Assembly: GCA_043824415.1 (NCBI GenBank)
Contig: JBDRSZ010000164.1
Span: forward strand, 1 to 42,952
DNA length: 42,952 nt
Origin: a bacterium
GTDB taxonomy: Bacteria; Zhuqueibacterota; QNDG01; DSAB01
Direction: 5' to 3'
The notes beneath the pieces are model-generated. The model was not told the origin of the DNA and searched no databases. It saw only the letters and a program-made list of their open reading frames with translations. This document shows, piece after piece, positions 1-12,286 of this stretch. The position numbers and the translations under genes are program-made. Numbering within the stretch: the first letter of the stretch is position 1; every line of letters begins with the position of its first letter.

Positions 1-1
1 C

Positions 2-88
2 GCTCTTGAAGTCACGGATGCGACGGCTCTCGTAGCCACCGAAAGTAAGACGGTCACGGTCACTTTCACGATGACCGACGCGTCTTAA
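2..88 (+). CDS. 3' end of an ORF running in from the left window edge (...ALVATESKTVTVTFTMTDAS*), possibly another secreted beta-rich subunit
   Basis: The frame is open from the window edge to a TAA at about 86-88. The Thr/Val alternating tail resembles the C-terminus of the next gene product (..SGTVIYTIMEL). Confidence 0.3.
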   Translation, partial: ALEVTDATALVATESKTVTVTFTMTDAS

Positions 89-118
89 TTCCGTGTTGTG
101 AGATGGGGGCGGATTCCA

Positions 119-631
119 ATGTCCGCCCCTATCTGCGATTCGAGGGGAAAAGTGAAAAGGTTGCGAAACGTCTTCTCTCTATGCGTGATTCTTCCGAGCC
201 TCATACTGGGTTATGGTGTCTCGGCCCAGGATATTACCGTCTTTGGAAACTGGTCTCTGATGATCGATGCTTCCAATCTGACGGCCGGTCCGGGGAGCGA
301 TGTGAACTCCACGTATATGAGTGACAACGATCAGATAGAAATCAATATTCTGCGAGCGAAAGGAATGTGGGCCGTGTATGTCAGGGGCGTTCCGATGAAC
401 TGGCATCCGGATCTGAGGTTTGGTATTCGGAGGACGAATAACGGGATCGGAGGCGGCTGGATCTCGGGCGGCACTTCGTGGCTGGAAGTCACGTCGTTCG
501 ATCAACAATTTTTTATGGGGAATAAACAGAGAAAGAATATTGATGTTCAGTGCGGACTGACGGGCGTTTCTGTTCAGATTCCCTCGGCGATGTATTCTGG
601 GACGGTTATTTATACGATCATGGAACTTTAG
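119..631 (+). CDS. Secreted beta-rich small protein, pilin/adhesin-subunit-like (hypothetical)
   Basis: ORF track 98..631 (GTG). The ATG at 119 gives a signal-peptide-like N-terminus (KVKRLRNVFSLCVILPSLILGYGVSA/QD). The mature part is beta-strand rich, has an NWSL (W-x-L) motif near its N-terminus, and ends MYSGTVIYTIMEL like fimbrial/SCPU-type subunits. No family can be assigned without an HMM search. Confidence 0.6.
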   Translation: MSAPICDSRGKVKRLRNVFSLCVILPSLILGYGVSAQDITVFGNWSLMIDASNLTAGPGSDVNSTYMSDNDQIEINILRAKGMWAVYVRGVPMNWHPDLRFGIRRTNNGIGGGWISGGTSWLEVTSFDQQFFMGNKQRKNIDVQCGLTGVSVQIPSAMYSGTVIYTIMEL

Positions 632-648
632 ATTGGAGAAGCATAAAA

Positions 649-1446
649 ATGGGGAAAAGGATCGGATTTTTTATTTTTATCATCGGTTTATTGGTGCGAA
701 ATACGCTGCCCGCCGGAGTTACGGTTTTAGGAGATTTGACCCACGAGAAGAATGTCCTTCCAGGCGAGACTTACAGCGGTGTGATTATCATATTGAATAC
801 GGGGGAAGAGCCGGAAGAGATCAAAGTGTATCAGACGGATTACCTGTTTTTCAGGGATGGTACGAGTGTCTACGGCAATCCGGGGGAGGTACTCCGTTCG
901 AATGCAGCGTGGATCTCTTTCAGTCAAAAGCGATTCACGGTTGCGCCCAAACAACGCCAGACAGTGCATTATACCGTGGAAGTTGCACGGCGTGAAGACC
1001 TTTCCGGCACGTATTGGAGTGTGTTGATGGTGGAAGCTGTTCCCAGAATATCGCCGGAAAGCATGGAGAAATCGGGATTGGGAATTCGAACCGTTCTTCG
1101 TTACGGAGTTCAGATGATTAGTCATATCGGGAACAGCGGGACGCGTGAGCTGAAGTTTTTGGGATCGAAGCTTCTTAATGAGGAAGGAAAAAAGATATTA
1201 CAGGTGGACATCGAAAATACAGGAGAGAGGTTATTGAGGCCGGAAGTGTGGGCTGAGTTCTATGACAAGAACGGTGTTTCCATAAGTACATTTGAGGGGA
1301 TGAAGCTGCGGACATATCCCGGGACTTCCGTGAGGTATAAGATTGATGTGAGCAGCGCGCCAGGCGGGACTTATAAAGTACTTGTCGTGGCGGATTGCGG
1401 AGGGAACGACCTTTTTGGAATTCAGTATGCCGTACAAATCGAATGA
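649..1446 (+). CDS. Exported two-domain Ig-like protein, DUF916/DUF3324-like (chaperone- or matrix-like)
   Basis: ORF track 550..1446. The ATG at 649 is preceded by GGAG about 10 nt upstream and gives the hydrophobic N-terminus MGKRIGFFIFIIGLLV. Two beta-sandwich-like halves are visible (PGETYSGVIIILNTGEEPEEIKVYQTDY..GTYWSVLMVE and LQVDIENTGERLLRPEVWAEFYD..GGTYKVLVVAD). Its stop overlaps the next gene's start (ATGA). Confidence 0.65.
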   Translation: MGKRIGFFIFIIGLLVRNTLPAGVTVLGDLTHEKNVLPGETYSGVIIILNTGEEPEEIKVYQTDYLFFRDGTSVYGNPGEVLRSNAAWISFSQKRFTVAPKQRQTVHYTVEVARREDLSGTYWSVLMVEAVPRISPESMEKSGLGIRTVLRYGVQMISHIGNSGTRELKFLGSKLLNEEGKKILQVDIENTGERLLRPEVWAEFYDKNGVSISTFEGMKLRTYPGTSVRYKIDVSSAPGGTYKVLVVADCGGNDLFGIQYAVQIE

Positions 1447-4400
1447 TGAATAGGATACTCCAAATTGCACTCATTTTCAGCCTTGCAATGTCTATTCATG
1501 CAGATAATGAAGGAATTCAAGTAAGACCGAACGGGAACACACTTATCGAGACGGAACCTCAGAAGATTGTTACGACAGTTTTTCGTGTCACGAACACCGG
1601 ATCCCCGAGACAGGAATTTATTTCAGAAGTGAGGCTTCCCCGGGGGTGGAAATTGATCACGCAGGATTTCCCTTTCGAATTGGATGAGAATGAGAGCGTC
1701 ATTAAACTTGTGAGTGTGTTCGTCCCTCAAGCGGCGACGGCCGGACTTTACGAAATCACCTACCGGGTGACGGGCAGAAAATACCCCTCCGTGAGTGATT
1801 TCTTTACAACGCAAATTGCCGTTCTGCCGAGTCTGCATTTGGATGTTCAACTGCTGGAAGCGCCTGAGTACGTTATTGCCGGGGACGACTATCGGATTTC
1901 TTTTGTCGTGAGCAACGGCTGTAATATCGTCGATAGAGTGTATGTTCGAATCGAGAATAAAGAAAATTACCCCGCTTCTTTCGTAGTTGAAGATTTTTCG
2001 ATGACTCCGATCAGGTCCAAAAAAATCACAGTGACGATCAAAACGGATGGGACGATCACGGATCGGATGAGACATACGATTCGCCTTATTGCGCAACTTC
2101 GAAAGAACGAACAGATACAGTCTGTGGCGTCGAGTTCTGTGGAGATTCTCCCGAGGAAGATGGGAGTGGAGGACCCGTTCCGCAGACTGCCTGTCACTGT
2201 TGCGTTAAGCCATGTGGTACAGAAGGACGACGACATGAGTAGTGGATTTCAGGGCAATATTTTTGGCGAAGGCACGCTGGACGAAGAAGGCGATAAACAC
2301 ATTCGGTTTCGATTTCGTGGACCCGATATTTTCGAGAGGTCTTTCTTGGCCGAGCACGATGAGTATTTTGTGAGTTATTGGACGAAAAATACTATGCTGC
2401 ATTTTGGAGACCGAGTTTTTTCCCTGTCGCCCCTTACGGAGAATTCACGGTATGGCAGAGGTGGCGAAGGAAGGATCGTCCTTCGTCATTTTACCTTTGG
2501 AGCGTTCTATCAAAAGGCGCGATGGATTCGGCCGACGAGGGAGGAAATGGCCTCGTACGTCCGGTATTCCATCGATAGAAAGCTCAGGATAGGGTTGAAT
2601 TTTCTTAGGAAAAAAATCGATGCAGCGGATGGAAAGGACGATGTCGTTAGTCTGGACGGGCACTTTGAACCCGTGAAGAATACGGAAGTCGAGGTCGAAT
2701 ATGCGTTGGGGAAGAAAGAGGGTCTAGAAAAGTCAGCTTACAGGGTGCAGATATCGGGTCATCGACCCAGAGTATTTTATCAGTTTAATCTTATTCGCGC
2801 CCAGCCCGATTTCCCCGGTTATTACAACGATACGAATTTTTTAGCAGGCAGCCTCTCTTTTGAATTGAATAAAAATCTTCGCATCAACGGGGGCGTCCGG
2901 GAGGAGAGACAGAATATAGATGTCGATACGACCCGATATACGGCCCCGTTTGACAAATTCTATCAAATGGGACTTCAATATCGTTGGAAGAGCGGCACAG
3001 CGTTTGCACTTGACTATCTGGACCGCAGTCGCGAAGATCGCATGATCGCGTCTAAATTTAACTACCGGGAAAAGACATTTAGATTCAGGATGGATCAGCA
3101 TTGTAAAAATTTGAGTCTCTCCGCGTCCGGCGAAATTGGAACGACCTGGAACAGACTGGCGGACGGTATTTTTCGGATGGAGAGGTACAATGTAAGCGTC
3201 TTTTTCAGGCCCACGAACCGACAATCTTACCGAGGTTATATATACTATACGAATGACGGCCGCACGGTCGGGGAGAAACGACGTCAACTCACGGTCGGCG
3301 TGAACCTCTCTGTTCAGTTTTCGGATCGGACCGATTTGCATATTCATCTACAGAATTATTATTCTCCCGAGGAGTATCTTCGAGACCGAAACATTTGCGA
3401 GGTTCGATTGAACCATACATTTACCAATGACCATCAATTTTCCGTTCGCGGCCGTTATACGTTGTTACGAAATTTTGTGGATCGGGGTGAGACGGCTGTT
3501 CTGGTCGAATATAAGATTCCCTTGGGAATTCCCATGGGTAAAAAGAAAGGTTTGTGTCTCATCGAGGGGCACGTATTCAATGCTGAAACACGGGAGCCAG
3601 TGAAAAATGCGATTCTCCGGATCAACGGATTCACGGCTGTGACGAATGAGAGGGGATATTTTGTATTCCCTTCGCTGAAACCGGGTCTATACTGCCTGGC
3701 TATTGACAAGGCCTGTATCGGTTTGAACCGCATCGTGACTCAGCGGTTGCCCGCAGAGGTGACTGTTCAGGAGGGAGAAAAAAAACAGATCGATTTCGGG
3801 ATCGTCCGGAGTGCGGAGTTATCGGGTAGAATCATCGTAGGACACGCAGAGGACACGTCGCCCGGTGAGGAGGTCAATGATGACGACCACAAGACTGATG
3901 ATGGTTTTTACATCGTCGGGAGCGAAAAACGCTCGACAGAACAGTTGAAGGATAGACAAGTATCACCCGTTCAAGGTTTGAAGGCGGATGAGGAGTCTGG
4001 AGTGAGTGAGACACGCGGACTGGCCGGTATTTTGGTGGAACTGATGAAAGACGGAATGGTTTTGCGTCGCGTGTCGGGTGAAGACGGAAGCTTTTTGTTC
4101 GAAGAATTGCATCCGGGCCGTTGGACGGTAAAAATATACGCCTATCATTTGCCGGAGAACCATTTTCTTGAAAGAGACATGCTTGCCGTAGATCTTCAGC
4201 CGGGTGAAAAAAGAGATTTATCCATGAAGGTGCTGCCGAAAAAAAGAAATATCCGAATGGTTCAAGATGGAGGAACGCTGCTGGAAGAGGCACCCAGTCC
4301 TCTTTCTTCCAATGGAACGCAGGATGATTACGATCTTGGCCTTCAGATGTTTCAGAAGGGACAGTATAAAGAAGCCGTCCGAATTTTTGAACAGGTATTG

Positions 4401-4520
4401 ATCCGAAGTTCGGATGAACGTATGAAAAAGAATTGCCGGTATTGGATGGGAAAATGTTACAATGCCTTAGGGGAGTATGGGAAGGCTATCGATGCATTCA
4501 ATGCGGTCATCAAGAATTAA
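1443..4520 (+). CDS. Very large outer-membrane-type protein: N-terminal Ig-like (NEW3/CARDB-like) repeats, beta-barrel-like middle, two CarboxypepD_reg-like domains, C-terminal TPR
   Basis: ORF track 1395..4520. The ATG at 1443 overlaps the upstream TGA and gives the signal peptide MMNRILQIALIFSLAMSIHA/DNEG.
- N-terminal region: VFRVTNTGSPRQEFISEVRLPRGWKL and a second similar repeat.
- Middle region: long alternating-hydrophobicity strands (YQFNLIRAQ..FLAGSLSFELN..FALDYLD..VLVEYKIPL).
- CarboxypepD_reg-like segments: IEGHVFNAETREPVKNAILRINGFTAVTNERGYFVF and LAGILVELMKDGMVLRRVSGEDGSFLFEELHPGRWTV.
- TPR-like tail: GQYKEAVRIFEQVL..GEYGKAIDAFNAVI. Confidence 0.75.
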   Translation: MMNRILQIALIFSLAMSIHADNEGIQVRPNGNTLIETEPQKIVTTVFRVTNTGSPRQEFISEVRLPRGWKLITQDFPFELDENESVIKLVSVFVPQAATAGLYEITYRVTGRKYPSVSDFFTTQIAVLPSLHLDVQLLEAPEYVIAGDDYRISFVVSNGCNIVDRVYVRIENKENYPASFVVEDFSMTPIRSKKITVTIKTDGTITDRMRHTIRLIAQLRKNEQIQSVASSSVEILPRKMGVEDPFRRLPVTVALSHVVQKDDDMSSGFQGNIFGEGTLDEEGDKHIRFRFRGPDIFERSFLAEHDEYFVSYWTKNTMLHFGDRVFSLSPLTENSRYGRGGEGRIVLRHFTFGAFYQKARWIRPTREEMASYVRYSIDRKLRIGLNFLRKKIDAADGKDDVVSLDGHFEPVKNTEVEVEYALGKKEGLEKSAYRVQISGHRPRVFYQFNLIRAQPDFPGYYNDTNFLAGSLSFELNKNLRINGGVREERQNIDVDTTRYTAPFDKFYQMGLQYRWKSGTAFALDYLDRSREDRMIASKFNYREKTFRFRMDQHCKNLSLSASGEIGTTWNRLADGIFRMERYNVSVFFRPTNRQSYRGYIYYTNDGRTVGEKRRQLTVGVNLSVQFSDRTDLHIHLQNYYSPEEYLRDRNICEVRLNHTFTNDHQFSVRGRYTLLRNFVDRGETAVLVEYKIPLGIPMGKKKGLCLIEGHVFNAETREPVKNAILRINGFTAVTNERGYFVFPSLKPGLYCLAIDKACIGLNRIVTQRLPAEVTVQEGEKKQIDFGIVRSAELSGRIIVGHAEDTSPGEEVNDDDHKTDDGFYIVGSEKRSTEQLKDRQVSPVQGLKADEESGVSETRGLAGILVELMKDGMVLRRVSGEDGSFLFEELHPGRWTVKIYAYHLPENHFLERDMLAVDLQPGEKRDLSMKVLPKKRNIRMVQDGGTLLEEAPSPLSSNGTQDDYDLGLQMFQKGQYKEAVRIFEQVLIRSSDERMKKNCRYWMGKCYNALGEYGKAIDAFNAVIKN

Positions 4521-4555
4521 TGATGTCGGCGTTTCGATGATAACGGAGGCGATAG

Positions 4556-6343
4556 ATGGTGAGAACGAATAACAGACGGAAGGAATCGAAAGGACTCTAC
4601 AATTTTATCTGGGTGGGCCTTGGATTCGGTGCATTCTATTGGCTGCTCGAGTCTTTTCGCGACGTCTTCGTATTCAATAAGGGGCATGTACTCGGGCGGA
4701 TCTTTTTCCCGGATATGATGTCTTTCTGGATGCGGATTTTGGTCGTATGCCTTCTGGTGTTGTTGAGCGTCTATGTGCAGTCTCTGAGAGAAAGGATGGA
4801 ATATAGAAGGAAAAAACCTTCGAGGTCTTTCCTCTCGAATAATGCGATCAAAGCTGGCGTATGCATCGGAATTCTGTACTGGATTTTAGAATCTGTCAGG
4901 GATGTACTCGTGTTCGAACGGGGGCCATTCATTGAACGAATCATCAGCCCAGACCCGATGGCATTTTGGATGCGACTCCTGGCTGTGTGTATTATCATGC
5001 TGTTCAGCGTTTATGCTCAGGCTCTGATCAATGAAAGGAAACGCAAAGAAGAATCGCTGCGCAGGGAGCGAGAACAATTGGAAAGAGTCGTGGAGAAGAG
5101 AACCGCCGAATTATCGAAATCGAATAAACTTCTGGCGCTGCTGAAAAAGGAGATCGCCGAACGAAAGCGGATCGAAGAAGAGAAACTCAAAATGCAGGCA
5201 CAGCTCATACAGGCGAAAAAGATGGAGGCTGTGGGTATCTTGGCCGGGGGAATTGCGCATGATTTTAATAATTTAATGACGGTCATTATTGGATGCGCCG
5301 ACATGTCGATGATGGATATTCCAGAGACAGAACCCGTGTATTCGGACTTGAAAGAAATCAGAGTTGCTGCAGTCAGGGCTACGGATCTGACGAGCCAGTT
5401 GTTGCTCTTCAGTCGAAAAAAGCCCATGCAGTTCAGTTTGGTGAACCTGAATCAAACCGTGCGGGATCTTCTTAAAATGCTTCATCGCCTGATTGGAGAG
5501 GATATTCAGGTCATCACGGATTTCGAACTGAATCTGTGGCCGATCTTAGCTGATAAAGGAACGATAAGCCAGGTCGTCATGAATTTGGCGGTGAATGCCA
5601 GGGATGCGATGCCCAAGGGGGGACGACTTTTGATCGGGACGAAGAATGTTCTGGTGAGCGAGTCCGACTCTGCGGGAGTGCCGGATGCGCGCCCGGGGAA
5701 ATTCGTCCGGGTTTCTGTTTCGGACACTGGCGTGGGCATGGATAAGGAATCGCTTCAGCATATTTTTGATCCTTTCTTCAGTACGAAGGATGTGGGCAAA
5801 GGAACAGGATTAGGTTTGGCTGTCGTGTATGGCATCGTCAACAAGCATAAAGGATGGATTCAGGTGGCGAGCGAACCGGGTCACGGCTCGACTTTTAACG
5901 TCTACTTCGAGGCCAATCCGGGGAATGTGAAGGATGAGCCTCAGGAAACCGCACCGATGAAAAAATATTCTTCCGGAAAGGGCAAACGGATATTGCTTGT
6001 GGAGGACGAAGAGAAAGTTCGAGAATTTACGGCCACGGGGCTGAGTCGAAACGGCTATGTCGTTTTTTCGGCAGCGAATGCAGAGGAAGCGATGCGTATT
6101 TTTCGAAGAGAAGAAGGAAGTTTCCGTTTTGTCCTGAGTGATGTGGTTTTGCCCGGCAAAAGCGGACTTGAGTTGGTCGAAGAATTCGTATCGGTTGATC
6201 CGAGCATCTCTGTCCTGTTGAGCAGCGGGTATCCGGACGATAGATCACAGCGGACGGTCATACAGAAGAGGGGATACCGATTCTTAAAAAAGCCGTACGC
6301 GCTTGAACATTTGCTCCAAGTCATCCGAGAGCTTGATGCATGA
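4556..6343 (+). CDS. Hybrid sensor histidine kinase (duplicated 2-TM membrane module, coiled coil, HisKA/HATPase, C-terminal receiver)
   Basis: GGAGG lies upstream of the ATG. H-box GGIAHDFNNLMTVIIG, N-box NLAVNARDAM, G-boxes DTGVGM and GKGTGLGLAVVYG. The receiver reads RILLVEDEE..VLSDVVLPGKSG..KKP. Confidence 0.9.
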   Translation: MVRTNNRRKESKGLYNFIWVGLGFGAFYWLLESFRDVFVFNKGHVLGRIFFPDMMSFWMRILVVCLLVLLSVYVQSLRERMEYRRKKPSRSFLSNNAIKAGVCIGILYWILESVRDVLVFERGPFIERIISPDPMAFWMRLLAVCIIMLFSVYAQALINERKRKEESLRREREQLERVVEKRTAELSKSNKLLALLKKEIAERKRIEEEKLKMQAQLIQAKKMEAVGILAGGIAHDFNNLMTVIIGCADMSMMDIPETEPVYSDLKEIRVAAVRATDLTSQLLLFSRKKPMQFSLVNLNQTVRDLLKMLHRLIGEDIQVITDFELNLWPILADKGTISQVVMNLAVNARDAMPKGGRLLIGTKNVLVSESDSAGVPDARPGKFVRVSVSDTGVGMDKESLQHIFDPFFSTKDVGKGTGLGLAVVYGIVNKHKGWIQVASEPGHGSTFNVYFEANPGNVKDEPQETAPMKKYSSGKGKRILLVEDEEKVREFTATGLSRNGYVVFSAANAEEAMRIFRREEGSFRFVLSDVVLPGKSGLELVEEFVSVDPSISVLLSSGYPDDRSQRTVIQKRGYRFLKKPYALEHLLQVIRELDA

Positions 6344-6422
6344 ATTGGAAAATTGATTAGTGGTGATAGTCTCATTTTGTGTCCATTTTTTTCAGCGCCG
6401 CATAAACTGGAGGTTATCGGAG

Positions 6423-9400
6423 ATGGAAGCTATAAAAAGGAATCGTTCCATAGGGACTTCCTTGGTGTGGGTCGGGATTATCCTCGGAGCGTTTTATTGG
6501 ATTCTTGAATCCGTGAGAGATGTGTTTGTGTTTGGGAAGGGCGGCTTATTCGAACGGCTTGTTCATCCTGATCCGATGGCTTTCTGGATGCGGTTTCTTA
6601 CTCTGGGCATTTTGATGCTGTTCTGTGTTTATGCCCAAGTGCTCATCAACGGACGCAAACGAGCGGAAAAGGCTCTGTGGGAGAGTGAGAATAAATACAG
6701 GACGATCACCGATAATATCAGTATGGGCATATTTAGAACGACTCTGGGTCTTGGAGGACATTTCTTAGAGGTGAATCCGGCCATCGTCCGGATGTTTGGA
6801 TACGATCGGAAGGAAGAGTTCCTGCAGACGAGCATGGCAGATTTATATCTTGATGCTGAAGAAGGAAACATGTTCTGTCAAAAAATACTGAACGATGGAT
6901 TCGTGAGGGATGAAGAGATTCAGCTGAAGAAGAAGGATGGAAGACCGTTGTGGTGTTCTGTAACGGCTGTTGCTGTTCTTGATGGGTCTGGAGAGACGCT
7001 TTATTATGACGGTGTGATCGAAGACATTACGGACAAGAAACAGGCAAGGGAAGATGTCAAAAGATTGAAGGATTTTAATGAAGGCATCGTTCAGAATATG
7101 GCCGAAGGAATCGTTGTGAGGGAAGCAGAGGGAACGATTACTTTTTACAATCCGGCCGTGTCGCGTCTTCTCGGATATTCGTCCGAGGATTTGATCGGAC
7201 GGCATTATAAAGAAATCGTTTCGCCTGGCCAGCATCCCGTTTTAGAATCAGCGGAGCAAACCCCGACAGCCGAGTCCGCCCGTCAATACGGGGTGGATTT
7301 GTTGAGCAAAGAGGGTGGACGAATTCCCGTTCTGGTCAGCGACAGTCCGCGGTTTGAGGCGGGGAGTTATGTCGGAAATATCGCCGTTTTTACGGATATT
7401 ACCGAGATCAAACGGGTTGAGGAAGAACTCAAAGTCAAGAAGGCCCATTTGGATCGATTGTTTGACAGCGCTCCGGAAGCGATCGTGATGTCGGATAACG
7501 ACGGCAGGATCCGTCGTGTGAACAGTGAATTTGTCCGACTATTCGGGTATGAAAGCAGGGAGGTCGTTGGAAGGATTTTAGATGAACTTATCGTGCCTGA
7601 GAATTTGTACGAGGAAGGCGTATCGCAAACCGAGCGTGTGATTGGGGGCGAACAGGTTGCTTTTGAGAGCATGCGTCGGATAAAGGACGGCACGTTTATA
7701 TCCGTCTCTGTACTCGGCTCTCCCATTGTTGTGGATGGAAAGCAGAGAGGCGTTTTTGGGATTTATCGCGACATTACGGAACAGAAGAGAGCCGAAGAAG
7801 AACTGAGGAAATACGCTCAGGATCTAAAGACGGCGAAAGAGACGGAGGAGGAACATGCTGCAGAGCTGATTCAACTGGTCGAAGATCTTGAGGTGGCCAA
7901 GTCACGGGCAGAAGCCGCAGCCCGCGCGAAGAGTGAATTTTTAGCCAACATGAGCCACGAGATCCGCACTCCCTTGAACGGCATTATCGGAATGACTGAA
8001 CTCGCACTCGACACGGATCTCAGTCCAGTGCAGCAGGAGTACTTGGATACGGTGAAGACATCGGCCGATTTGCTGCACACGATCATCAACAATATTCTTG
8101 ACTTTTCGAAGATTGAAGCGGGAAAACTTGAGATGGAAGCTTTGGAGTTTCATCTGCGAGACTGCCTGGGTGATACGATTCAGACGTTGGCGTTACAAGC
8201 GGAAGAGAAGGGAATCGAGTTGGCCTGTCATATCGTGGCTGATGTGCCCGATGCTCTGGTGGGAGATTTAAACCGTCTGAGACAGGTCGTCCTCAATTTG
8301 GTGAACAATGCACTCAAGTTCACGGAGAATGGTGAAGTCGTCCTCCATGCGGATGTTGAAGAATGGACTGAGGATGGAGTGTTGCTGCATTTTTCTGTGA
8401 TCGATACAGGCATAGGCATTCCCGCAGAGAAGCAGAAGATCATATTTGAAGCTTTCACACAGGCCGATGGCTCGACAACGCGGAAATTCGGCGGAACCGG
8501 TTTGGGTTTGGCGATTTCTTCAAAGCTCGTTGAAATGATGGGCGGTTCGATTTGGGTGGAAAGCCCGTCAAAGACGCGGGGAACGGATGTCGGCGGCCCT
8601 GGGAGCACGTTTCATTTTACTGCGCATTTTAAAACACAGCAAGGTACGGCAGAATTCGCGCAAAGGAGGGCGTTCGTCGATTTGCGCAATCTACCGGTTC
8701 TGGTCGTCGATGACAATGCCACGAACCGACGCATTCTTGAAGAAATGCTCACCAATTGGGAGATGAAGCCGACTGCCGTGGGGAGTGGAGTCACGGCGTT
8801 GGAAGAGATGAAGCGCGCTGCGGCATGCGGGAGATCTTTCCCGCTCGTATTGCTCGACGCCCACATGCCCGAGATGGATGGGTTTACACTGGCAGAGAGA
8901 ATCAGAAGAAATCCGGACTTAGAGGGTGCCACGATCATGATGCTCTCTTCGTCGGATCGGACGAGCACGGTGGTTCGTTGTCAAGCGTTGGGCATTTCTG
9001 TTTATCTCGTCAAGCCTATCAAACAGTCAGATCTGTTCAATGCCATCGTGGATACGTTGGGTCAGAACAGCAATTCGAGGACGGATGAACGGATGGATCG
9101 GTCTTTGGAGGAACGAACGAGGAGGGAACCCATGATTGAAGAAGATCATAAAAGCGAAACGATGTTCAGAATCCTATTGGCGGAAGACAACGCCATCAAC
9201 CGTAAATTAGCAGAGGAACTTTTACGGAAGAGGGGCTGGGATGTTGTTTCTGTGACGAATGGGAAAGAAGCGCTGGAGGCTTTGGAGTCCGAAGATTTTG
9301 CGATGATCCTGATGGACGTACAGATGCCGGAGATGGACGGATTCGAGGCCACTGCTGCGATTCGTGAGAAGGAGAAAAAGACCGGGACGCGTATCCCCAT

Positions 9401-9896
9401 CATCGCTATGACCGCCCATGCCTTGAAGGGTGATAAAGAAAAATGTCTTGCGGCGGGAATGGACGATTATGTGTCCAAGCCGATGAAGGCGGAAGAACTC
9501 TACAGAGTTGTAGAGGAGCGGATGAAGGACATCAACGTTTCTGCGGATGAACCGTCCATCGATCTTTCGTGCGCGTTGAATGCAGTCGGGAATGACAAAA
9601 AACTTTTAAAGGATCTGCTGGGAGATTTCTTGAAAGAAATTCCAACTCAGCTGAATGATCTTCAGTACGTGATCACAGACGGCGACTCGAAGAGTCTGGA
9701 AAGAATGGCCCATACGTTTAAGAGCAATGTGGGACTATTTGGTTACGAGAAAGCGTACGCACTGGCTTCTGAACTTGAGAATCGGGGCAGGGAATCGCGA
9801 TTGGATGGGACGGATGCGATCTTACATCGCCTGAAACAGCAGATGTCGCGGTTTTCAGGATATTTCTCTACTTCCGCTTGGGAGGAAAACTTGTGA
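6423..9896 (+). CDS. Multidomain hybrid sensor kinase: 2-TM module, three PAS, HisKA, HATPase, two receivers, C-terminal Hpt
   Basis: ORF track 6360..9896 (GTG). I prefer the ATG at 6423, with GGAGG about 10 nt upstream. Motifs seen:
- PAS-like segments ending DITDKKQA, DITEIKRVEEEL and DITEQKRAEEEL
- H-box SHEIRTPLNGIIGM
- HATPase motifs NLVNNALKF, DTGIGI, GGTGLGLAI
- Receivers LVVDDNATNRR..LLDAHMPEMDG and LLAEDNAINRK..LMDVQMPEMDG
- Hpt motif HTFKSNVGLFG. Confidence 0.9.
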   Translation: MEAIKRNRSIGTSLVWVGIILGAFYWILESVRDVFVFGKGGLFERLVHPDPMAFWMRFLTLGILMLFCVYAQVLINGRKRAEKALWESENKYRTITDNISMGIFRTTLGLGGHFLEVNPAIVRMFGYDRKEEFLQTSMADLYLDAEEGNMFCQKILNDGFVRDEEIQLKKKDGRPLWCSVTAVAVLDGSGETLYYDGVIEDITDKKQAREDVKRLKDFNEGIVQNMAEGIVVREAEGTITFYNPAVSRLLGYSSEDLIGRHYKEIVSPGQHPVLESAEQTPTAESARQYGVDLLSKEGGRIPVLVSDSPRFEAGSYVGNIAVFTDITEIKRVEEELKVKKAHLDRLFDSAPEAIVMSDNDGRIRRVNSEFVRLFGYESREVVGRILDELIVPENLYEEGVSQTERVIGGEQVAFESMRRIKDGTFISVSVLGSPIVVDGKQRGVFGIYRDITEQKRAEEELRKYAQDLKTAKETEEEHAAELIQLVEDLEVAKSRAEAAARAKSEFLANMSHEIRTPLNGIIGMTELALDTDLSPVQQEYLDTVKTSADLLHTIINNILDFSKIEAGKLEMEALEFHLRDCLGDTIQTLALQAEEKGIELACHIVADVPDALVGDLNRLRQVVLNLVNNALKFTENGEVVLHADVEEWTEDGVLLHFSVIDTGIGIPAEKQKIIFEAFTQADGSTTRKFGGTGLGLAISSKLVEMMGGSIWVESPSKTRGTDVGGPGSTFHFTAHFKTQQGTAEFAQRRAFVDLRNLPVLVVDDNATNRRILEEMLTNWEMKPTAVGSGVTALEEMKRAAACGRSFPLVLLDAHMPEMDGFTLAERIRRNPDLEGATIMMLSSSDRTSTVVRCQALGISVYLVKPIKQSDLFNAIVDTLGQNSNSRTDERMDRSLEERTRREPMIEEDHKSETMFRILLAEDNAINRKLAEELLRKRGWDVVSVTNGKEALEALESEDFAMILMDVQMPEMDGFEATAAIREKEKKTGTRIPIIAMTAHALKGDKEKCLAAGMDDYVSKPMKAEELYRVVEERMKDINVSADEPSIDLSCALNAVGNDKKLLKDLLGDFLKEIPTQLNDLQYVITDGDSKSLERMAHTFKSNVGLFGYEKAYALASELENRGRESRLDGTDAILHRLKQQMSRFSGYFSTSAWEENL

Positions 9897-10288
9897 ACGC
9901 ACTTATGAAACGAATTCTTGTCATCGAGGATAACAAGGTTTATTGTAGGATTCTGCGGTTGTGGCTCGAGTCGAACGGGTATCAGATTCTGGTTTGCCAC
10001 GATGGATTGGATGGTTTGAATACAGCGAAGAAAGAGAAACCGGATCTTATTATCCTCGACCTTCTGCTTCCGAGTTTGGACGGGCATAAGGTGTGTCGGC
10101 TGCTCAAGGCCGACCGGAATTTTAACACTATTCCCGTTGTCATATTTACCTCAAGAGATTTGAATGCGGATGAAGTTTTGGCGAAACAGTGCGGCGCGGA
10201 TGCGTTCGTTGTGAAGACTGTACAATCCGAGGTCATCCTGAATACGATACGGGGATTGCTGACTGCAACGAGACAAGATGCACAATAG
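9893..10288 (+). CDS. Single-domain response regulator (CheY-like receiver only)
   Basis: ORF track 9878..10288 (TTG). The GTG at 9893 has GGAGG 7 nt upstream and overlaps the upstream TGA. An alternative ATG lies at 9905 (MKRILVIEDN). Receiver motifs: IEDN, IILDLLLPSLDG, FTS, VVKT. Confidence 0.85.
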   Translation: MNALMKRILVIEDNKVYCRILRLWLESNGYQILVCHDGLDGLNTAKKEKPDLIILDLLLPSLDGHKVCRLLKADRNFNTIPVVIFTSRDLNADEVLAKQCGADAFVVKTVQSEVILNTIRGLLTATRQDAQ

Positions 10289-10345
10289 TGGAGTATTTTA
10301 GAAAAGGAGCTGTTTATCTTATTCATCTCACAAAAGGAATGCAGG

Positions 10346-12286
10346 ATGGACAAGCCGGAAGTTAAAGTTTTGTTGATCGAAGACGACCCATCGGACCGGA
10401 TGGCTTTCGAGAGGATTGTTGAAGATGAAACGCTTCCCTATCGGTATTTTGTAGCCGGTTCGATCCTTGAAGCTAAACGATACTTGAATTCAGAGCCCTT
10501 CGATGTGGTTATTGCCAACAGTATTGTTGGCGATGGGACGGTACTGGCGCTTTTTGATTTCATTATCGATGCTCCTATCCTCATGATGACGGAGGAGGGT
10601 CATGTCGATATTGCCGTTCAAGCGATGAAATTGGGCGCTTATGATTACTTGATCAAGGACGCCGACCGCCATTACTTAAAAGTGTTGCCCATGAATGTTG
10701 AGAGAGCCGTTCGACATAAGACAGCGGAAGACCGTCTGCGGGAGAGCGAAGAAAGATACCGTATTCTGTTCCACAGCGCGGCGGATCCGATCGCTGTTAT
10801 CGACACGGAAGGGAATTTATTCGATGTGAATCAAAGGTTCGAAGAGGAAAGCGGTTATAGCCGGCATGAGATATTGGGTAGAAATATCTATACGTGCGGG
10901 CTTTTAACAGGAAAATCTATAAAGAAGATCAAGCCGCACGTAAAAGGACTGCTCCGAGGCCGGTCGTGTCCGTTGCTTGAGATCGAATGTATGAGCAAGG
11001 ATGGCAGACTGGTTCCTTATGAACTCCGGGCGGTTCCCATTAAACGGAACGGTGAGATTATCTCGATTCAGGCTATCCTGAGGAATATCGCCGAACGAGC
11101 GGAAGCGGAAAGAGAAAGAATGAGGATGCAAGCGCAACTGATCCAAGCACAAAAGATGGAGGCCATAGGTGTCCTGGCCGGGGGAATCGCGCATGATTTT
11201 AACAACCTGCTCACAGCTATCATCGGGTGTACGGACATGGCAATGATGGGCATGGATGCGTCTGAATCCGCGTACATGGATTTGAAAGAAGTGAGGATCG
11301 CTGCTGAACGGGCGGCTGATCTGACGAGTCAATTGATGCTTTTCAGCCGCAAGAAAAATATGAGGTTCACTCCGGTCGATCTCAATGCTGTGGTCAGGGA
11401 TCTGCTGAAGATGCTGCACCGTTTGATCGGGGAGGACATCAGAATTGATACAGATCTGAGTTCGAATCTTTGGGCTGGGTGGGCCGACCAAGGGACGATA
11501 GGGCAAGTGATTATGAACTTGGCTGTGAACGCAAGGGATGCAATGCTGGGAGGAGGAGAACTCAGAATCAGGACATCGAATACGGATTTGAAGGATAAGC
11601 AGTGCAGGCACATGTCCGAAGCGTATCCCGGCAAGTTTGTTTGTCTTTCAGTATCGGATTCCGGTGTGGGCATGGACGAGAAGACGATCGCGCATGCTTT
11701 TGATCCGTTTTTCAGTACCAAGCAAAAGGGGAAGGGAACGGGATTGGGACTTGCTGTCGTGTACGGCATTGTCAAACAGCATGCTGGCTGGATACACGTT
11801 AAGAGCAAACCCGGCTTTGGCTCAACTTTCGAGGTCTACATTCCGCGCTGCTCGAAACGCGCCAAGAAGGAAGGGGGGGGGATTCGGATGAAAGAGCAAT
11901 TCCAAGGCGGGGGCAAACGTATCCTGATTGTGGAAGATGAGGATAAAGTGAGGGAGTTTACCGCCTGCGGGTTGGACAGGAGCGGTTATGTCGTTTTTTC
12001 GGCCGCGAACGCATCCGAAGCGAAAAGCGTATTTTCGAGAGAGAAGGGAGATTTTCATCTCATTCTGAGCGATATCATGCTGCCCGATAAAAATGGCATC
12101 GAACTGGTGGATGAATTCATCTCCGCGAAACCGGATATCCGGGTTTTATTCAGCAGCGGGTACTCGGATTATCATACACGCTGGCCGATGCTACAGGAGA
12201 GAGGGTGCCGGTTCTTGGAGAAGCCGTATACGCTGTGTGATTTGCTCAGCACGATTCAGGAGCTTACGGAATCTTTGGATGGATGA
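10346..12286 (+). CDS. Receiver(Asn-substituted)-PAS-histidine kinase-receiver hybrid protein
   Basis: The N-terminal receiver-like fold (VLLIEDDPSD..FDVVIANSIVGDG..MMTEEG..LIKD) has Asn where the phospho-Asp is expected. There is one PAS (ERYRILFHSAADPIAVIDTEGN). The H-box is GGIAHDFNNLLTAIIG and the HATPase motifs are present. The C-terminal receiver reads ILIVEDEDK..ILSDIMLPDKNG..EKP. Confidence 0.9.
   Translation: MDKPEVKVLLIEDDPSDRMAFERIVEDETLPYRYFVAGSILEAKRYLNSEPFDVVIANSIVGDGTVLALFDFIIDAPILMMTEEGHVDIAVQAMKLGAYDYLIKDADRHYLKVLPMNVERAVRHKTAEDRLRESEERYRILFHSAADPIAVIDTEGNLFDVNQRFEEESGYSRHEILGRNIYTCGLLTGKSIKKIKPHVKGLLRGRSCPLLEIECMSKDGRLVPYELRAVPIKRNGEIISIQAILRNIAERAEAERERMRMQAQLIQAQKMEAIGVLAGGIAHDFNNLLTAIIGCTDMAMMGMDASESAYMDLKEVRIAAERAADLTSQLMLFSRKKNMRFTPVDLNAVVRDLLKMLHRLIGEDIRIDTDLSSNLWAGWADQGTIGQVIMNLAVNARDAMLGGGELRIRTSNTDLKDKQCRHMSEAYPGKFVCLSVSDSGVGMDEKTIAHAFDPFFSTKQKGKGTGLGLAVVYGIVKQHAGWIHVKSKPGFGSTFEVYIPRCSKRAKKEGGGIRMKEQFQGGGKRILIVEDEDKVREFTACGLDRSGYVVFSAANASEAKSVFSREKGDFHLILSDIMLPDKNGIELVDEFISAKPDIRVLFSSGYSDYHTRWPMLQERGCRFLEKPYTLCDLLSTIQELTESLDG

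What the first reader, a model, noticed from the sequence alone, without database searches (positions are those of the whole stretch)
1..4520. Putative novel surface-structure assembly locus: secreted subunit(s), exported Ig-like two-domain protein, giant outer-membrane protein
The locus runs in one direction, with close spacing and an ATGA start/stop overlap. Its components are:
- the tail of a Thr/Val-rich ORF at the window edge;
- a 170-aa signal-peptide protein with a subunit-like beta-strand C-terminus (SGTVIYTIMEL) and a W-x-L motif;
- a 265-aa exported protein whose two halves resemble the DUF916/DUF3324 Ig-like domains found in Gram-positive WxL surface-protein clusters;
- a 1025-aa protein with a beta-barrel-like core.

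The subunit / periplasmic Ig-fold protein / outer-membrane pore logic mirrors chaperone-usher systems, but none of the proteins shows classical PapD or usher motifs. A WxL/DUF916-like module coupled to an outer-membrane protein in a diderm would, as far as I know, be undescribed.
Basis: inference. Interest (0 to 1): 0.6.

Follow-up and report, generated by a model that had tools for sequence, protein, structure and literature searches.

The report
Usher-like fibre operon, WxLIP-type chaperone
This four-gene operon of a double-membraned bacterium most likely builds a surface fibre as chaperone-usher pili do, but its chaperone is related to that of the Gram-positive WxL pilus, a system recently reported as confined to Gram-positives.

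Summary

Window 1-4520 holds the end of subunit gene S, subunit gene A, a 265-aa exported two-Ig protein B and a 1025-aa outer-membrane protein C. All run one way, with an ATGA overlap at B/C.

- **B:** A profile of B relatives matches the solved E. faecium WxLIP (DUF916/DUF3324) at E 1.5e-5. Its confident model hits WxLIP first, then classical pilus chaperones (CfaA, CsuC, Caf1M, FimC). B has no membrane anchor.
- **C:** Its model hits the ushers FimD and PapC far ahead of other barrels.
- **S and A:** They are distant paralogues with no Pfam or PDB match.
- **Conservation:** The subunit-B-C module is present in every related locus with enough sequence, across many diderm phyla.
- **Subunit pattern:** The gene next to B lacks a 15-residue N-terminal strand in 56 of 59 loci. 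Distal subunit genes carry it in 70 of 73. This is the pattern expected for a donor-strand-exchange fibre with a cap.

No paper in the searched library describes this module. An October 2026 preprint reports the WxL chaperone-pilin system only in Bacillota. Subunit folds and polymerisation remain untested.

The parts
2..88 (+). 3' end of subunit gene S, cut by the contig start. S is the probable major, polymerising subunit with an N-terminal extension.
   Evidence: The tail ...ALEVTDATALVATESKTVTVTFTMTDAS* is identical to the end of a complete 175-aa S gene on contig C297 of the same MAG. That contig overlaps window 1-804 at 92.5% identity. The S family has 129 members in 66 loci and shares the C-terminal motif TVT[LYF]T[LI]TD.
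95..138 (+). GC-rich intercistronic RNA hairpin between S and A.
   Evidence: MFE is -34.5 kcal/mol and z is -5.3, with 0 of 200 shuffles folding as well. Strong hairpins are enriched after S stop codons in related loci: 27% against 5% background, p 7e-5. None follow A genes.
151..631 (+). Subunit gene A (160 aa from GTG 151; 170 aa if ATG 119). Signal peptide, then a mature protein that begins directly with the first core strand (QDITVFGNW...). It has no N-terminal extension and is the probable cap/tip subunit.
   Evidence: A has no Pfam, NCBIfam or PDB match. The A family has 66 members in 58 of 85 loci, always on the same strand as B. A is homologous to S by hhalign (prob 96.3%, E 1.5e-9), with a 13-column gap in A right after the signal peptide. 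The gene next to B lacks the extension in 56 of 59 loci.
649..1446 (+). Gene B: a soluble periplasmic two-Ig-domain protein, a WxLIP-type chaperone candidate without a membrane anchor.
   Evidence: The profile of 47 relatives hits PDB 9i25/9i1y EfmWxLIP1 at E 1.5e-5. The AF2 model has pLDDT 91.3. Foldseek ranks WxLIP first (E 1.5e-14), then CfaA, CsuC, Caf1M, FimC, FaeE, DraB and SafB. There is no TM-like segment after the signal peptide.
1072..1128 (+). B residues 142-160 (GLGIRTVLRYGVQMISHIG): the end of a flexible loop plus the last strand of domain 1. This is the candidate donor strand.
   Evidence: It includes the most conserved motif of the family, with invariant R151 and Y152. The loop at 131-150 has low pLDDT. 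The segment aligns with the experimentally defined donor strand of ElrE, mature 141-152 GLAIENRYAYTV (bioRxiv 10.64898/2026.10.17.759780).
1443..4520 (+). Gene C: a 1025-aa usher-like outer-membrane protein.
   Evidence: The AF2 model has pLDDT 83.9. The Foldseek top 10 are all FimD or PapC ushers (best E 4e-16), while LptD and TonB-dependent receptors score about 1e-7. No usher HMM or sequence match was found. C follows B in 83 of 85 loci.
1515..2150 (+). C aa 25-236: two N-terminal Ig-like (NEW3/CARDB-type) periplasmic domains.
   Evidence: Pfam NPCBM_assoc hit at 4.3e-5. The second domain weakly resembles B domain 1 (hhalign prob 75%, E 2.4e-5).
2178..3542 (+). C aa 246-700: outer-membrane beta-barrel region (26 beta elements; 24-26 barrel strands). 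No inserted plug domain of about 80 aa is visible.
   Evidence: DSSP string of the model. Weak profile hits to OmpG and TodX. Faint Porin_4 hits in relatives.
3555..4238 (+). C aa 705-932: two CarboxypepD_reg-type beta-sandwich domains, separated by a disordered acidic linker at aa 803-854.
   Evidence: Pfam PF13620 hit at 6.2e-10. pLDDT and secondary structure are.
4314..4514 (+). C aa 958-1024: C-terminal TPR helices. This module varies between relatives, and some carry SPOR instead.
   Evidence: Pfam TPR_6 and ANAPC3 hits, and NCBIfam YbgF-like at 2e-9. SPOR (PF05036) occurs in P0163, P0179 and P0188.

Best explanation
S-A-B-C is an operon for a chaperone-usher-like pathway that assembles a thin surface fibre.

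**Shown by sequence:** All four proteins carry Sec signal peptides.

**Inferred from homology and fold:**
- B is a soluble periplasmic two-Ig chaperone of the WxLIP type. It would bind newly exported S and A subunits and complete their fold with its conserved hairpin strand (aa about 142-160, RYGVQ motif).
- C is an outer-membrane barrel flanked by two N-terminal Ig domains and two C-terminal beta-sandwich domains. It would act as the usher, receiving chaperone-subunit complexes and threading the fibre outward.
- C's TPR tail (SPOR in some relatives) would tie the usher to periplasmic partners or peptidoglycan.

**Inferred from comparative pattern:**
- A has no N-terminal extension and would enter first, capping the distal end.
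- S would then polymerise by inserting its roughly 15-residue N-terminal strand (QDNDNHDVTLVVNS...) into the preceding subunit.
- The hairpin after S would raise S output relative to A, B and C.
For: - **B, sequence level:** A profile of 47 relatives matches solved EfmWxLIP1 at E 1.5e-5. Sub-threshold WxLIP_PGBD hits occur in 13 of 47 relatives, and none hit PapD_N.
- **B, fold level:** The model has pLDDT 91.3. WxLIP is the top Foldseek hit (1.5e-14), followed by about 40 classical chaperone structures.
- **B, donor strand:** Its most conserved strand aligns with the proven donor strand of ElrE (preprint read).
- **C:** The Foldseek top 10 are FimD/PapC (4e-16 to 3e-11), with 800-860 aligned columns.
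- **Subunits are paralogues:** hhalign of S against A gives prob 96.3% and E 1.5e-9.
- **Fixed short C-termini:** In A, 49 of 52 members have 3-4 residues after the last [YFW]T[VLI] motif. In S, 127 of 129 have 2-6.
- **Extension pattern:** The subunit gene next to B lacks the N-terminal extension in 56 of 59 loci (46 from the A family, 10 from the S family). Distal subunit genes have it in 70 of 73.
- **Copy number:** There are 1-8 tandem subunit genes per locus.
- **Hairpins:** Strong hairpins are enriched after S genes only.
- **Synteny:** Strict across at least 12 diderm phyla.
- **Host envelope:** The host genome encodes LpxC.
Against: - No subunit structure was predicted, so the incomplete Ig fold and acceptor groove of S and A are unverified.
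- S and A match no pilin, WxL or SCPU family. The profile comparison with ElrD-type WxL proteins gives only a 32-residue C-terminal match (E 0.004, prob 9%).
- C has no sequence similarity to ushers. TM-scores to FimD are low (0.26-0.39).
- No plug domain is visible in C.
- There is no experimental or expression evidence.
Confidence: 0.68

Rival explanations
1. The module is an export and display system, not a fibre. B escorts S and A through the periplasm, and C releases them or holds them at the surface as monomers or a small complex. That complex could be a static surface platform, as was formerly proposed for WxL clusters.
For: - The B and C evidence fits any escort-plus-pore system.
- The subunits match no known pilin family.
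- The older WxL model was a static platform (Discussion of the preprint).
Against: - The presence or absence of the N-terminal extension depends on operon position. The fixed short C-termini are also hard to explain without strand exchange between subunits.
- The related WxL system has now been shown to polymerise.
Confidence: 0.2
2. It is a very divergent member of the classical chaperone-usher family (for example the archaic/sigma class) that Pfam models simply miss. On this reading it would have no special tie to WxL systems.
For: Classical chaperones and ushers are strong fold matches. One JGI record names a B relative 'P pilus assembly chaperone PapD'.
Against: - At sequence level the B profile reaches only WxLIP in the PDB. 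It reaches no PapD-like chain even at E up to 10.
- WxLIP is the best fold hit by four orders of magnitude.
- PF00345 and PF00577 are hit in none of the 47 B relatives or in C.
- The subunits do not hit the fimbrial or SCPU families.
Confidence: 0.07
3. The genes are functionally unrelated neighbours, or C is a nutrient channel with B as a periplasmic binding partner. No assembly role would be involved.
For: C shows weak profile hits to OmpG and TodX. CarboxypepD_reg domains also occur in SusC-type transporters.
Against: - Gene order is strict, and genes overlap, across phyla.
- The domain order differs from TonB-dependent receptors, which are far weaker fold matches.
- Multiple tandem subunit paralogues are present.
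Confidence: 0.05

Closest known systems
WxL (Elr) pilus of Enterococcus faecalis and the WxL/Csc clusters of Bacillota. Sources: Sleutel et al., bioRxiv 10.64898/2026.10.17.759780; WxLIP paper PMC10599100; PDB 9i25 and 9i1y.
   Same: - The chaperone is the same kind of protein. B is related to WxLIP (DUF916+DUF3324) by profile (E 1.5e-5) and is the best fold match.
- The ElrE donor strand maps onto B's most conserved strand.
- Small secreted subunits are encoded next to the chaperone. Some have an N-terminal strand of about 15 residues, and one lacks it.
- The C-terminal subunit motif is similar (Y-[ST]-T-T-[VI]-x-[YW]-T-[VL]).
   Different: - The host is a diderm with LPS.
- B has no C-terminal membrane helix, whereas 96.7% of WxL chaperones have one.
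- An usher-like outer-membrane protein is present, and there is no LPxTG anchor or sortase step.
- The subunits do not hit the WxL Pfam model.
- B falls below the Pfam thresholds that the preprint used for its survey, which is why the survey found the system only in Bacillota.
Classical and archaic chaperone-usher pili (Fim, Pap, Caf1, CFA/I, Csu)
   Same: - The operon logic is the same: subunits, a periplasmic two-Ig chaperone and an outer-membrane usher.
- The chaperone fold and the usher fold match. The usher fold is a barrel with N-terminal and two C-terminal beta-sandwich domains.
- One subunit lacks the N-terminal extension.
- A hairpin follows the presumed major subunit gene.
   Different: - No sequence-level membership: PapD_N/C, Usher, Fimbrial and SCPU models are all negative.
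- C is larger, with two N-terminal Ig domains, 24-26 barrel strands, no evident plug domain, and a TPR or SPOR tail.
Pam pili of CPR bacteria (Troman et al., bioRxiv 10.64898/2026.03.03.709456)
   Same: Per that abstract, these are Ig-like pilins joined by donor-strand exchange, with operon-encoded chaperone-like proteins structurally similar to chaperone-usher components.
   Different: The paper describes Pam pilins as exclusive to CPR bacteria. I did not compare the sequences here.

Membership tests
Classical chaperone-usher pathway | Chaperone matches PapD_N (PF00345) and PapD_C (PF02753) | tested here: not met
   No such hit for B, nor for any of 47 relatives at E up to 10. No PapD-like chain was reached by profile in the PDB.
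Classical chaperone-usher pathway | Two-Ig-domain, L-shaped periplasmic chaperone fold | tested here: met
   The AF2 model has pLDDT 91.3. Foldseek hits CfaA, CsuC, Caf1M, FimC, FaeE, DraB and SafB at E 3e-10 to 3e-7.
Classical chaperone-usher pathway | Usher matches PF00577, PapC_N and PapC_C | tested here: not met
   No hit at E up to 1. The profile of 49 relatives finds no usher chain in the PDB.
Classical chaperone-usher pathway | Usher architecture: outer-membrane barrel with a periplasmic N-terminal domain and two C-terminal beta-sandwich domains | tested here: met
   The Foldseek top 10 are FimD/PapC (E 4e-16 to 3e-11, about 800-860 aligned columns), although TM-scores are only 0.26-0.39.
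Classical chaperone-usher pathway | Plug domain inserted in the barrel | tested here: inconclusive
   The secondary-structure string shows no insert of about 80 aa. Only two short strands lie in the highly conserved segment at aa 279-316.
Classical chaperone-usher pathway | Subunits with an incomplete Ig fold, an N-terminal extension and donor-strand exchange | tested here: inconclusive
   The sequence pattern fits: an extension in distal subunits and none in the B-proximal one, plus fixed short C-termini.
WxL / WxLIP (Elr-type) pilus system | Chaperone carries PF06030 + PF11797 above Pfam thresholds | tested here: not met
   The window's B has no hit. Relatives give only sub-threshold hits: 13 of 47 to PF06030 (best 0.0014) and 2 of 47 to PF11797.
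WxL / WxLIP (Elr-type) pilus system | Homology of the chaperone to WxLIP | tested here: met
   The profile matches EfmWxLIP1 at E 1.5e-5 over 180 positions. WxLIP is the best fold match at E 1.5e-14.
WxL / WxLIP (Elr-type) pilus system | C-terminal transmembrane anchor on the chaperone | tested here: not met
   B ends right after the second Ig domain and has no hydrophobic segment. A few longer relatives (P0229, P0235) do have a TM helix.
WxL / WxLIP (Elr-type) pilus system | Subunits carry the WxL domain (PF13731) | tested here: inconclusive
   No Pfam hit in 37 A or 36 S members. hhalign against an ElrD-family profile gives only a C-terminal match (E 0.004, prob 9%).
WxL / WxLIP (Elr-type) pilus system | LPxTG terminator and sortase anchoring, in a monoderm host | tested here: not met
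   No LPxTG motif in S, A, B or C. The host encodes LpxC. Relatives lie in diderm phyla.

The most novel reading that the evidence does not exclude
The S-A-B-C module is a third, widespread class of donor-strand-exchange pilus pathway. It has thousands of B representatives, occurs in about a quarter of genomes in the host's phylum, and is found in at least 12 diderm phyla. Its chaperone shares ancestry with the Gram-positive WxL chaperone, and its pore has the usher architecture. It would be the outer-membrane counterpart of WxL pili. It would also be a candidate evolutionary link between WxL and chaperone-usher systems, which current literature treats as disjoint and taxon-restricted.
Probability: 0.45. 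Interest if true: 0.88.

Novelty: new variant of a known kind. Interest (0 to 1): 0.78.

Why it matters
Donor-strand-exchange pili are textbook machines, known from Proteobacteria (chaperone-usher). In 2026 they were also reported in Bacillota (WxL/Elr) and CPR bacteria (Pam).

This module would show that a WxLIP-type chaperone also works in the periplasm together with an usher-like pore. It occurs in many uncultured diderm phyla: Desulfobacterota, Spirochaetota, Planctomycetota, Bacteroidota, Ignavibacteriota, Zixibacteria, KSB1, Nitrospirota, Verrucomicrobiota and Bdellovibrionota.

That finding would:
- contradict the reported restriction of the WxL chaperone lineage to Bacillota;
- give function to several large families annotated only as hypothetical;
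- make the question of common ancestry of fold-completing chaperones and ushers directly testable;
- provide a plug-less, larger usher variant for mechanistic comparison.

Tried and rejected
- **Pfam and NCBIfam on the three window proteins:** No informative hits for A or B. C gave only generic Ig, CarboxypepD_reg and TPR hits.
- **A and S profiles against PDB sequences and Pfam:** Nothing significant.
- **Iterated HMM search with the A profile among locus ORFs:** It did not reach the S family. The link needed hhalign.
- **hhalign of A and S against ElrD alone and against an ElrD-family alignment:** Only a short C-terminal match, so WxL homology of the subunits is not claimed.
- **hhalign of the B profile against the single ElrE sequence:** Nothing. 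The local hmmsearch alignment is weak (about 7 bits) and was used only to map the donor strand.
- **C N-terminal Ig domains against B:** Only weak similarity (prob 50-75%). I did not take this as proof of a WxLIP-like pair in the usher.
- **Promoter and terminator consensus scan:** At background level.
- **The look-up of sequencing runs:** Closed, so there is no expression evidence.
- **Contig extension:** It could not be extended directly because the window starts at the contig end. Contig C297, a 92.5%-identical strain variant, supplied the left flank instead.

Full report
**What is in the sequence**

The window is the whole of contig C164 of a 492-contig MAG. The MAG is 3.88 Mb, 90.5% complete and 1.7% contaminated. 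It encodes LpxC, so it has an LPS outer membrane.

On the + strand the genes are:
- a 28-codon ORF tail at 2-88 (...SKTVTVTFTMTDAS*);
- gene A at 119/151-631;
- gene B at 649-1446;
- gene C at 1443-4520.

The B stop and C start overlap as ATGA. A is separated from B by 17 nt that carry a GGAG.

A second contig of the same MAG, C297, overlaps window 1-804 at 92.5% identity. It is a strain variant, and it supplies the missing left flank. That flank holds one complete 175-aa gene, here called S, whose last 28 residues are identical to the window's tail. S is preceded by about 0.5 kb of spacer and an unrelated radical-SAM gene. The operon is therefore S-A-B-C. All four proteins have Sec-type signal peptides. 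None has an LPxTG motif or a second hydrophobic segment.

**Protein B**

Pfam and NCBIfam give nothing significant for the window's own protein.

The family is large:
- 429 word-indexed homologues;
- 4743 representatives at E up to 1e-3 in the 50%-identity library;
- at least 503 GTDB species genomes;
- 44 of 167 genomes of the host's own phylum.

A profile of 47 members matches only one solved protein family in the PDB, the WxL-interacting protein EfmWxLIP1 (9i25, 9i1y). The match has E 1.5e-5 over profile positions 91-271. Scanned individually, 13 of 47 members give sub-threshold hits to WxLIP_PGBD (PF06030) and 2 to WxLIP_HBD (PF11797). None hits PapD_N.

The AlphaFold2 model is confident (pLDDT 91.3). 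It has two beta-sandwich domains and a low-confidence loop at 131-150. In the Foldseek search of the PDB, WxLIP ranks first (E 1.5e-14). The classical and archaic pilus chaperones follow: CfaA, CsuC, Caf1M, FimC, FaeE, DraB and SafB.

B ends directly after the second domain, so it is soluble in the periplasm.

**What WxLIP proteins do**

A preprint of October 2026 (bioRxiv 10.64898/2026.10.17.759780) reports the following:
- The E. faecalis elr WxL operon builds a pilus by donor-strand exchange.
- The DUF916/DUF3324 protein ElrE is the membrane-anchored, fold-completing chaperone.
- The ElrE donor strand is mature residues 141-152.
- The subunits donate an N-terminal strand of about 15 residues.

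Using Pfam gathering thresholds on RefSeq reference proteomes, the preprint finds the system only in Bacillota. [quoted passage not shown]

I fetched the elr locus. The B profile aligns the ElrE donor strand (GLAIENRYAYTV) with B residues 142-153 (GLGIRTVLRYGV). This is the end of the flexible loop plus the start of the last strand of domain 1. It includes R151 and Y152, which are invariant in the B family. That pairwise alignment is weak and was used only for mapping.

**Protein C**

Pfam sees an N-terminal NEW3/CARDB-type Ig domain, two CarboxypepD_reg domains and C-terminal TPRs.

The model, built from a 49-sequence alignment (pLDDT 83.9, pTM 0.58), shows these parts in order:
- a signal peptide;
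- two Ig domains (aa 25-236);
- 26 consecutive long beta elements (aa 246-700);
- a beta-sandwich (aa 705-800);
- a disordered acidic linker (aa 803-854);
- a second beta-sandwich (aa 856-932);
- TPR helices (aa 958-1024).

The Foldseek top ten are all pilus ushers, FimD or PapC. Their E-values run from 4e-16 to 3e-11 with 800-860 aligned columns. LptD and TonB-dependent receptors appear only at about 1e-7. TM-scores are low (0.26-0.39), as expected for a flexible multi-domain protein.

There is no sequence-level match to ushers, and no plug domain of about 80 residues is visible. The most conserved stretch of the family (aa about 270-345) lies at the start of the barrel and is a candidate gate. 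Some relatives carry a SPOR domain instead of TPR. This suggests a variable periplasmic or peptidoglycan-binding tail.

**The small proteins**

A belongs to a family with 66 members in 58 of 85 loci, always on the same strand as B.

A second family, S, has 129 members in 66 loci, in 1-6 tandem copies, mostly upstream of A. The window's tail ORF belongs to S.

Neither family matches Pfam or the PDB. They are homologous to each other by hhalign (prob 96.3%, E 1.5e-9, 147 columns).

Both families end a fixed 2-6 residues after a terminal beta-strand motif:
- A ends Y-S-T-T-V-x-Y-T-V-x-D/E-x.
- S ends [HRK]-T-V-T-[LYF]-T-[LI]-T-D-x.

The key difference is at the N-terminus. Mature S starts with about 16 extra residues: x-[TS]-x-x-[QH]-T-V-T-h-x-V-x-x-I-N-E. 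Mature A starts directly at the following strand, (D/S)-I-T-V-T-G-x-W.

Across loci, the subunit gene adjacent to B lacks this extension in 56 of 59 cases. Of these, 46 are A-family genes and 10 are S-family genes that have independently lost the extension. Distal subunit genes carry it in 70 of 73 cases. This is the pattern of a donor-strand-exchange fibre: many strand-donating subunits plus one acceptor-only cap. It argues that the extension is a donor strand.

Homology of the subunits to WxL domains is not established. A profile of ElrD relatives aligns only with the last 32 residues of A (vQ..L.G.S.....Y.TT[VI].[YW]T[VL]). The scores are E 0.004 and probability 9%.

**Operon features**

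A strong hairpin (-34.5 kcal/mol, z -5.3) sits between S and A at about 95-138. It overlaps the putative ATG-119 start of A, which favours GTG-151 as the real start.

In related loci, strong hairpins (MFE of -25 or lower within 70 nt) follow 27% of S stop codons, against 5% of random windows (p 7e-5). None follows an A stop codon. This is consistent with differential expression of a major subunit.

**Conservation**

- C follows B on the same strand in 83 of 85 fetched loci. The two exceptions end right after B.
- S/A genes accompany B in 68 of 71 loci with at least 1.2 kb upstream. The other three have an A gene by blastp.
- Record titles place the loci in Desulfobacterota/Syntrophales, Spirochaetota, Planctomycetota, Zixibacteria, KSB1, Ignavibacteriota, Bacteroidota, Nitrospirota, Verrucomicrobiota, Bdellovibrionota, Deferribacteres, Eisenbacteria and some Gammaproteobacteria. 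Nearly all are MAGs.

**Interpretation**

The best reading is a chaperone-usher-like pathway (confidence about 0.68). B is a periplasmic WxLIP-type chaperone. C is an usher-like pore and assembly platform. S is the polymerising subunit and A is the cap.

What is shown:
- the genes, their signal peptides and their synteny;
- B's relationship to WxLIP and its chaperone fold;
- C's usher-like predicted fold;
- S/A paralogy and the position-dependent N-terminal extension.

What is inferred:
- donor-strand complementation by B;
- donor-strand exchange between subunits;
- translocation through C;
- the role of the hairpin and the TPR tail.

Rival readings:
- an escort-plus-pore display system without polymerisation (0.2);
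- a merely very divergent classical chaperone-usher system (0.07);
- unrelated or transport functions (0.05).

**Novelty**

I found no paper or preprint in the library that describes a WxLIP-like chaperone coupled to an outer-membrane usher-like protein. [quoted passage not shown] The Pam pili of CPR bacteria are a further usher-less relative.

Earlier notes of this scan describe the same module in more than 30 other genomes and reach similar conclusions. They are AI notes, not independent evidence. The points I re-tested here agree with them: the WxLIP link, the usher-like fold, about 26 strands without a plug, and broad diderm distribution.

I rate the finding as a new variant of a known kind (donor-strand, chaperone-usher-type assembly).

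**Limits**

- Both structure-prediction jobs went to B and C, so no subunit or complex model exists.
- The host's taxonomy was not determined, beyond LpxC and the nearest relatives of B being Syntrophales- or Desulfobacterota-type MAGs.

Noticed in passing
window 1-804 versus contig C297 of the same genome: C297 (reverse strand, 4061-4864) is 92.5% identical to the window's first 804 bases, and both contigs break inside this operon. The MAG therefore contains two strain variants of the locus. This probably caused the assembly break.
   Followed up: yes
window 4556-12286: A co-directional phosphorelay starts 35 nt after C: HK-REC, PAS-HK-REC-REC-Hpt, REC, and REC*-PAS-HK-REC. Signalling genes also follow C in some relatives: GAF-HK-REC in L001/L002 and GAF-GGDEF in L005. 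This may be regulatory coupling, but it is not conserved generally.
   Followed up: partly
P0229 (528 aa) and P0235 (408 aa), relatives of B; also 560-620-aa open frames in genomes G050-G067: Some B-family members continue after the second Ig domain into a Pro/Ala-rich linker, one transmembrane helix and a cytoplasmic tail. One tail has a faint MCP-signal hit. These are membrane-anchored forms reminiscent of WxLIP/ElrE topology.
   Followed up: partly
L082 (Bacteriovoracaceae MAG), about 5.4 kb upstream of B: At least eight tandem subunit-sized genes of about 160-200 aa precede the chaperone gene. Other loci carry 4-6 (L039, L080, L083).
   Followed up: no
L020:6890-7918 and L081:7013-7969: These A-family subunits are 318-342 aa, about twice the usual length. 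An extra domain may be fused to the cap subunit, as in two-domain tip adhesins.
   Followed up: no
G037 contig C29, 5792-6586 and 12217-13011: Two B copies with identical scores lie 6.4 kb apart on one contig. This suggests a recent tandem duplication of the whole module.
   Followed up: no
window 1443-1628 (start of gene C): The public gene call for C (P0121, 963 aa) starts 62 codons downstream of ATG 1443 and so lacks the signal peptide. The 1025-aa reading with MMNRILQIALIFSLAMSIHA is the better start.
   Followed up: partly
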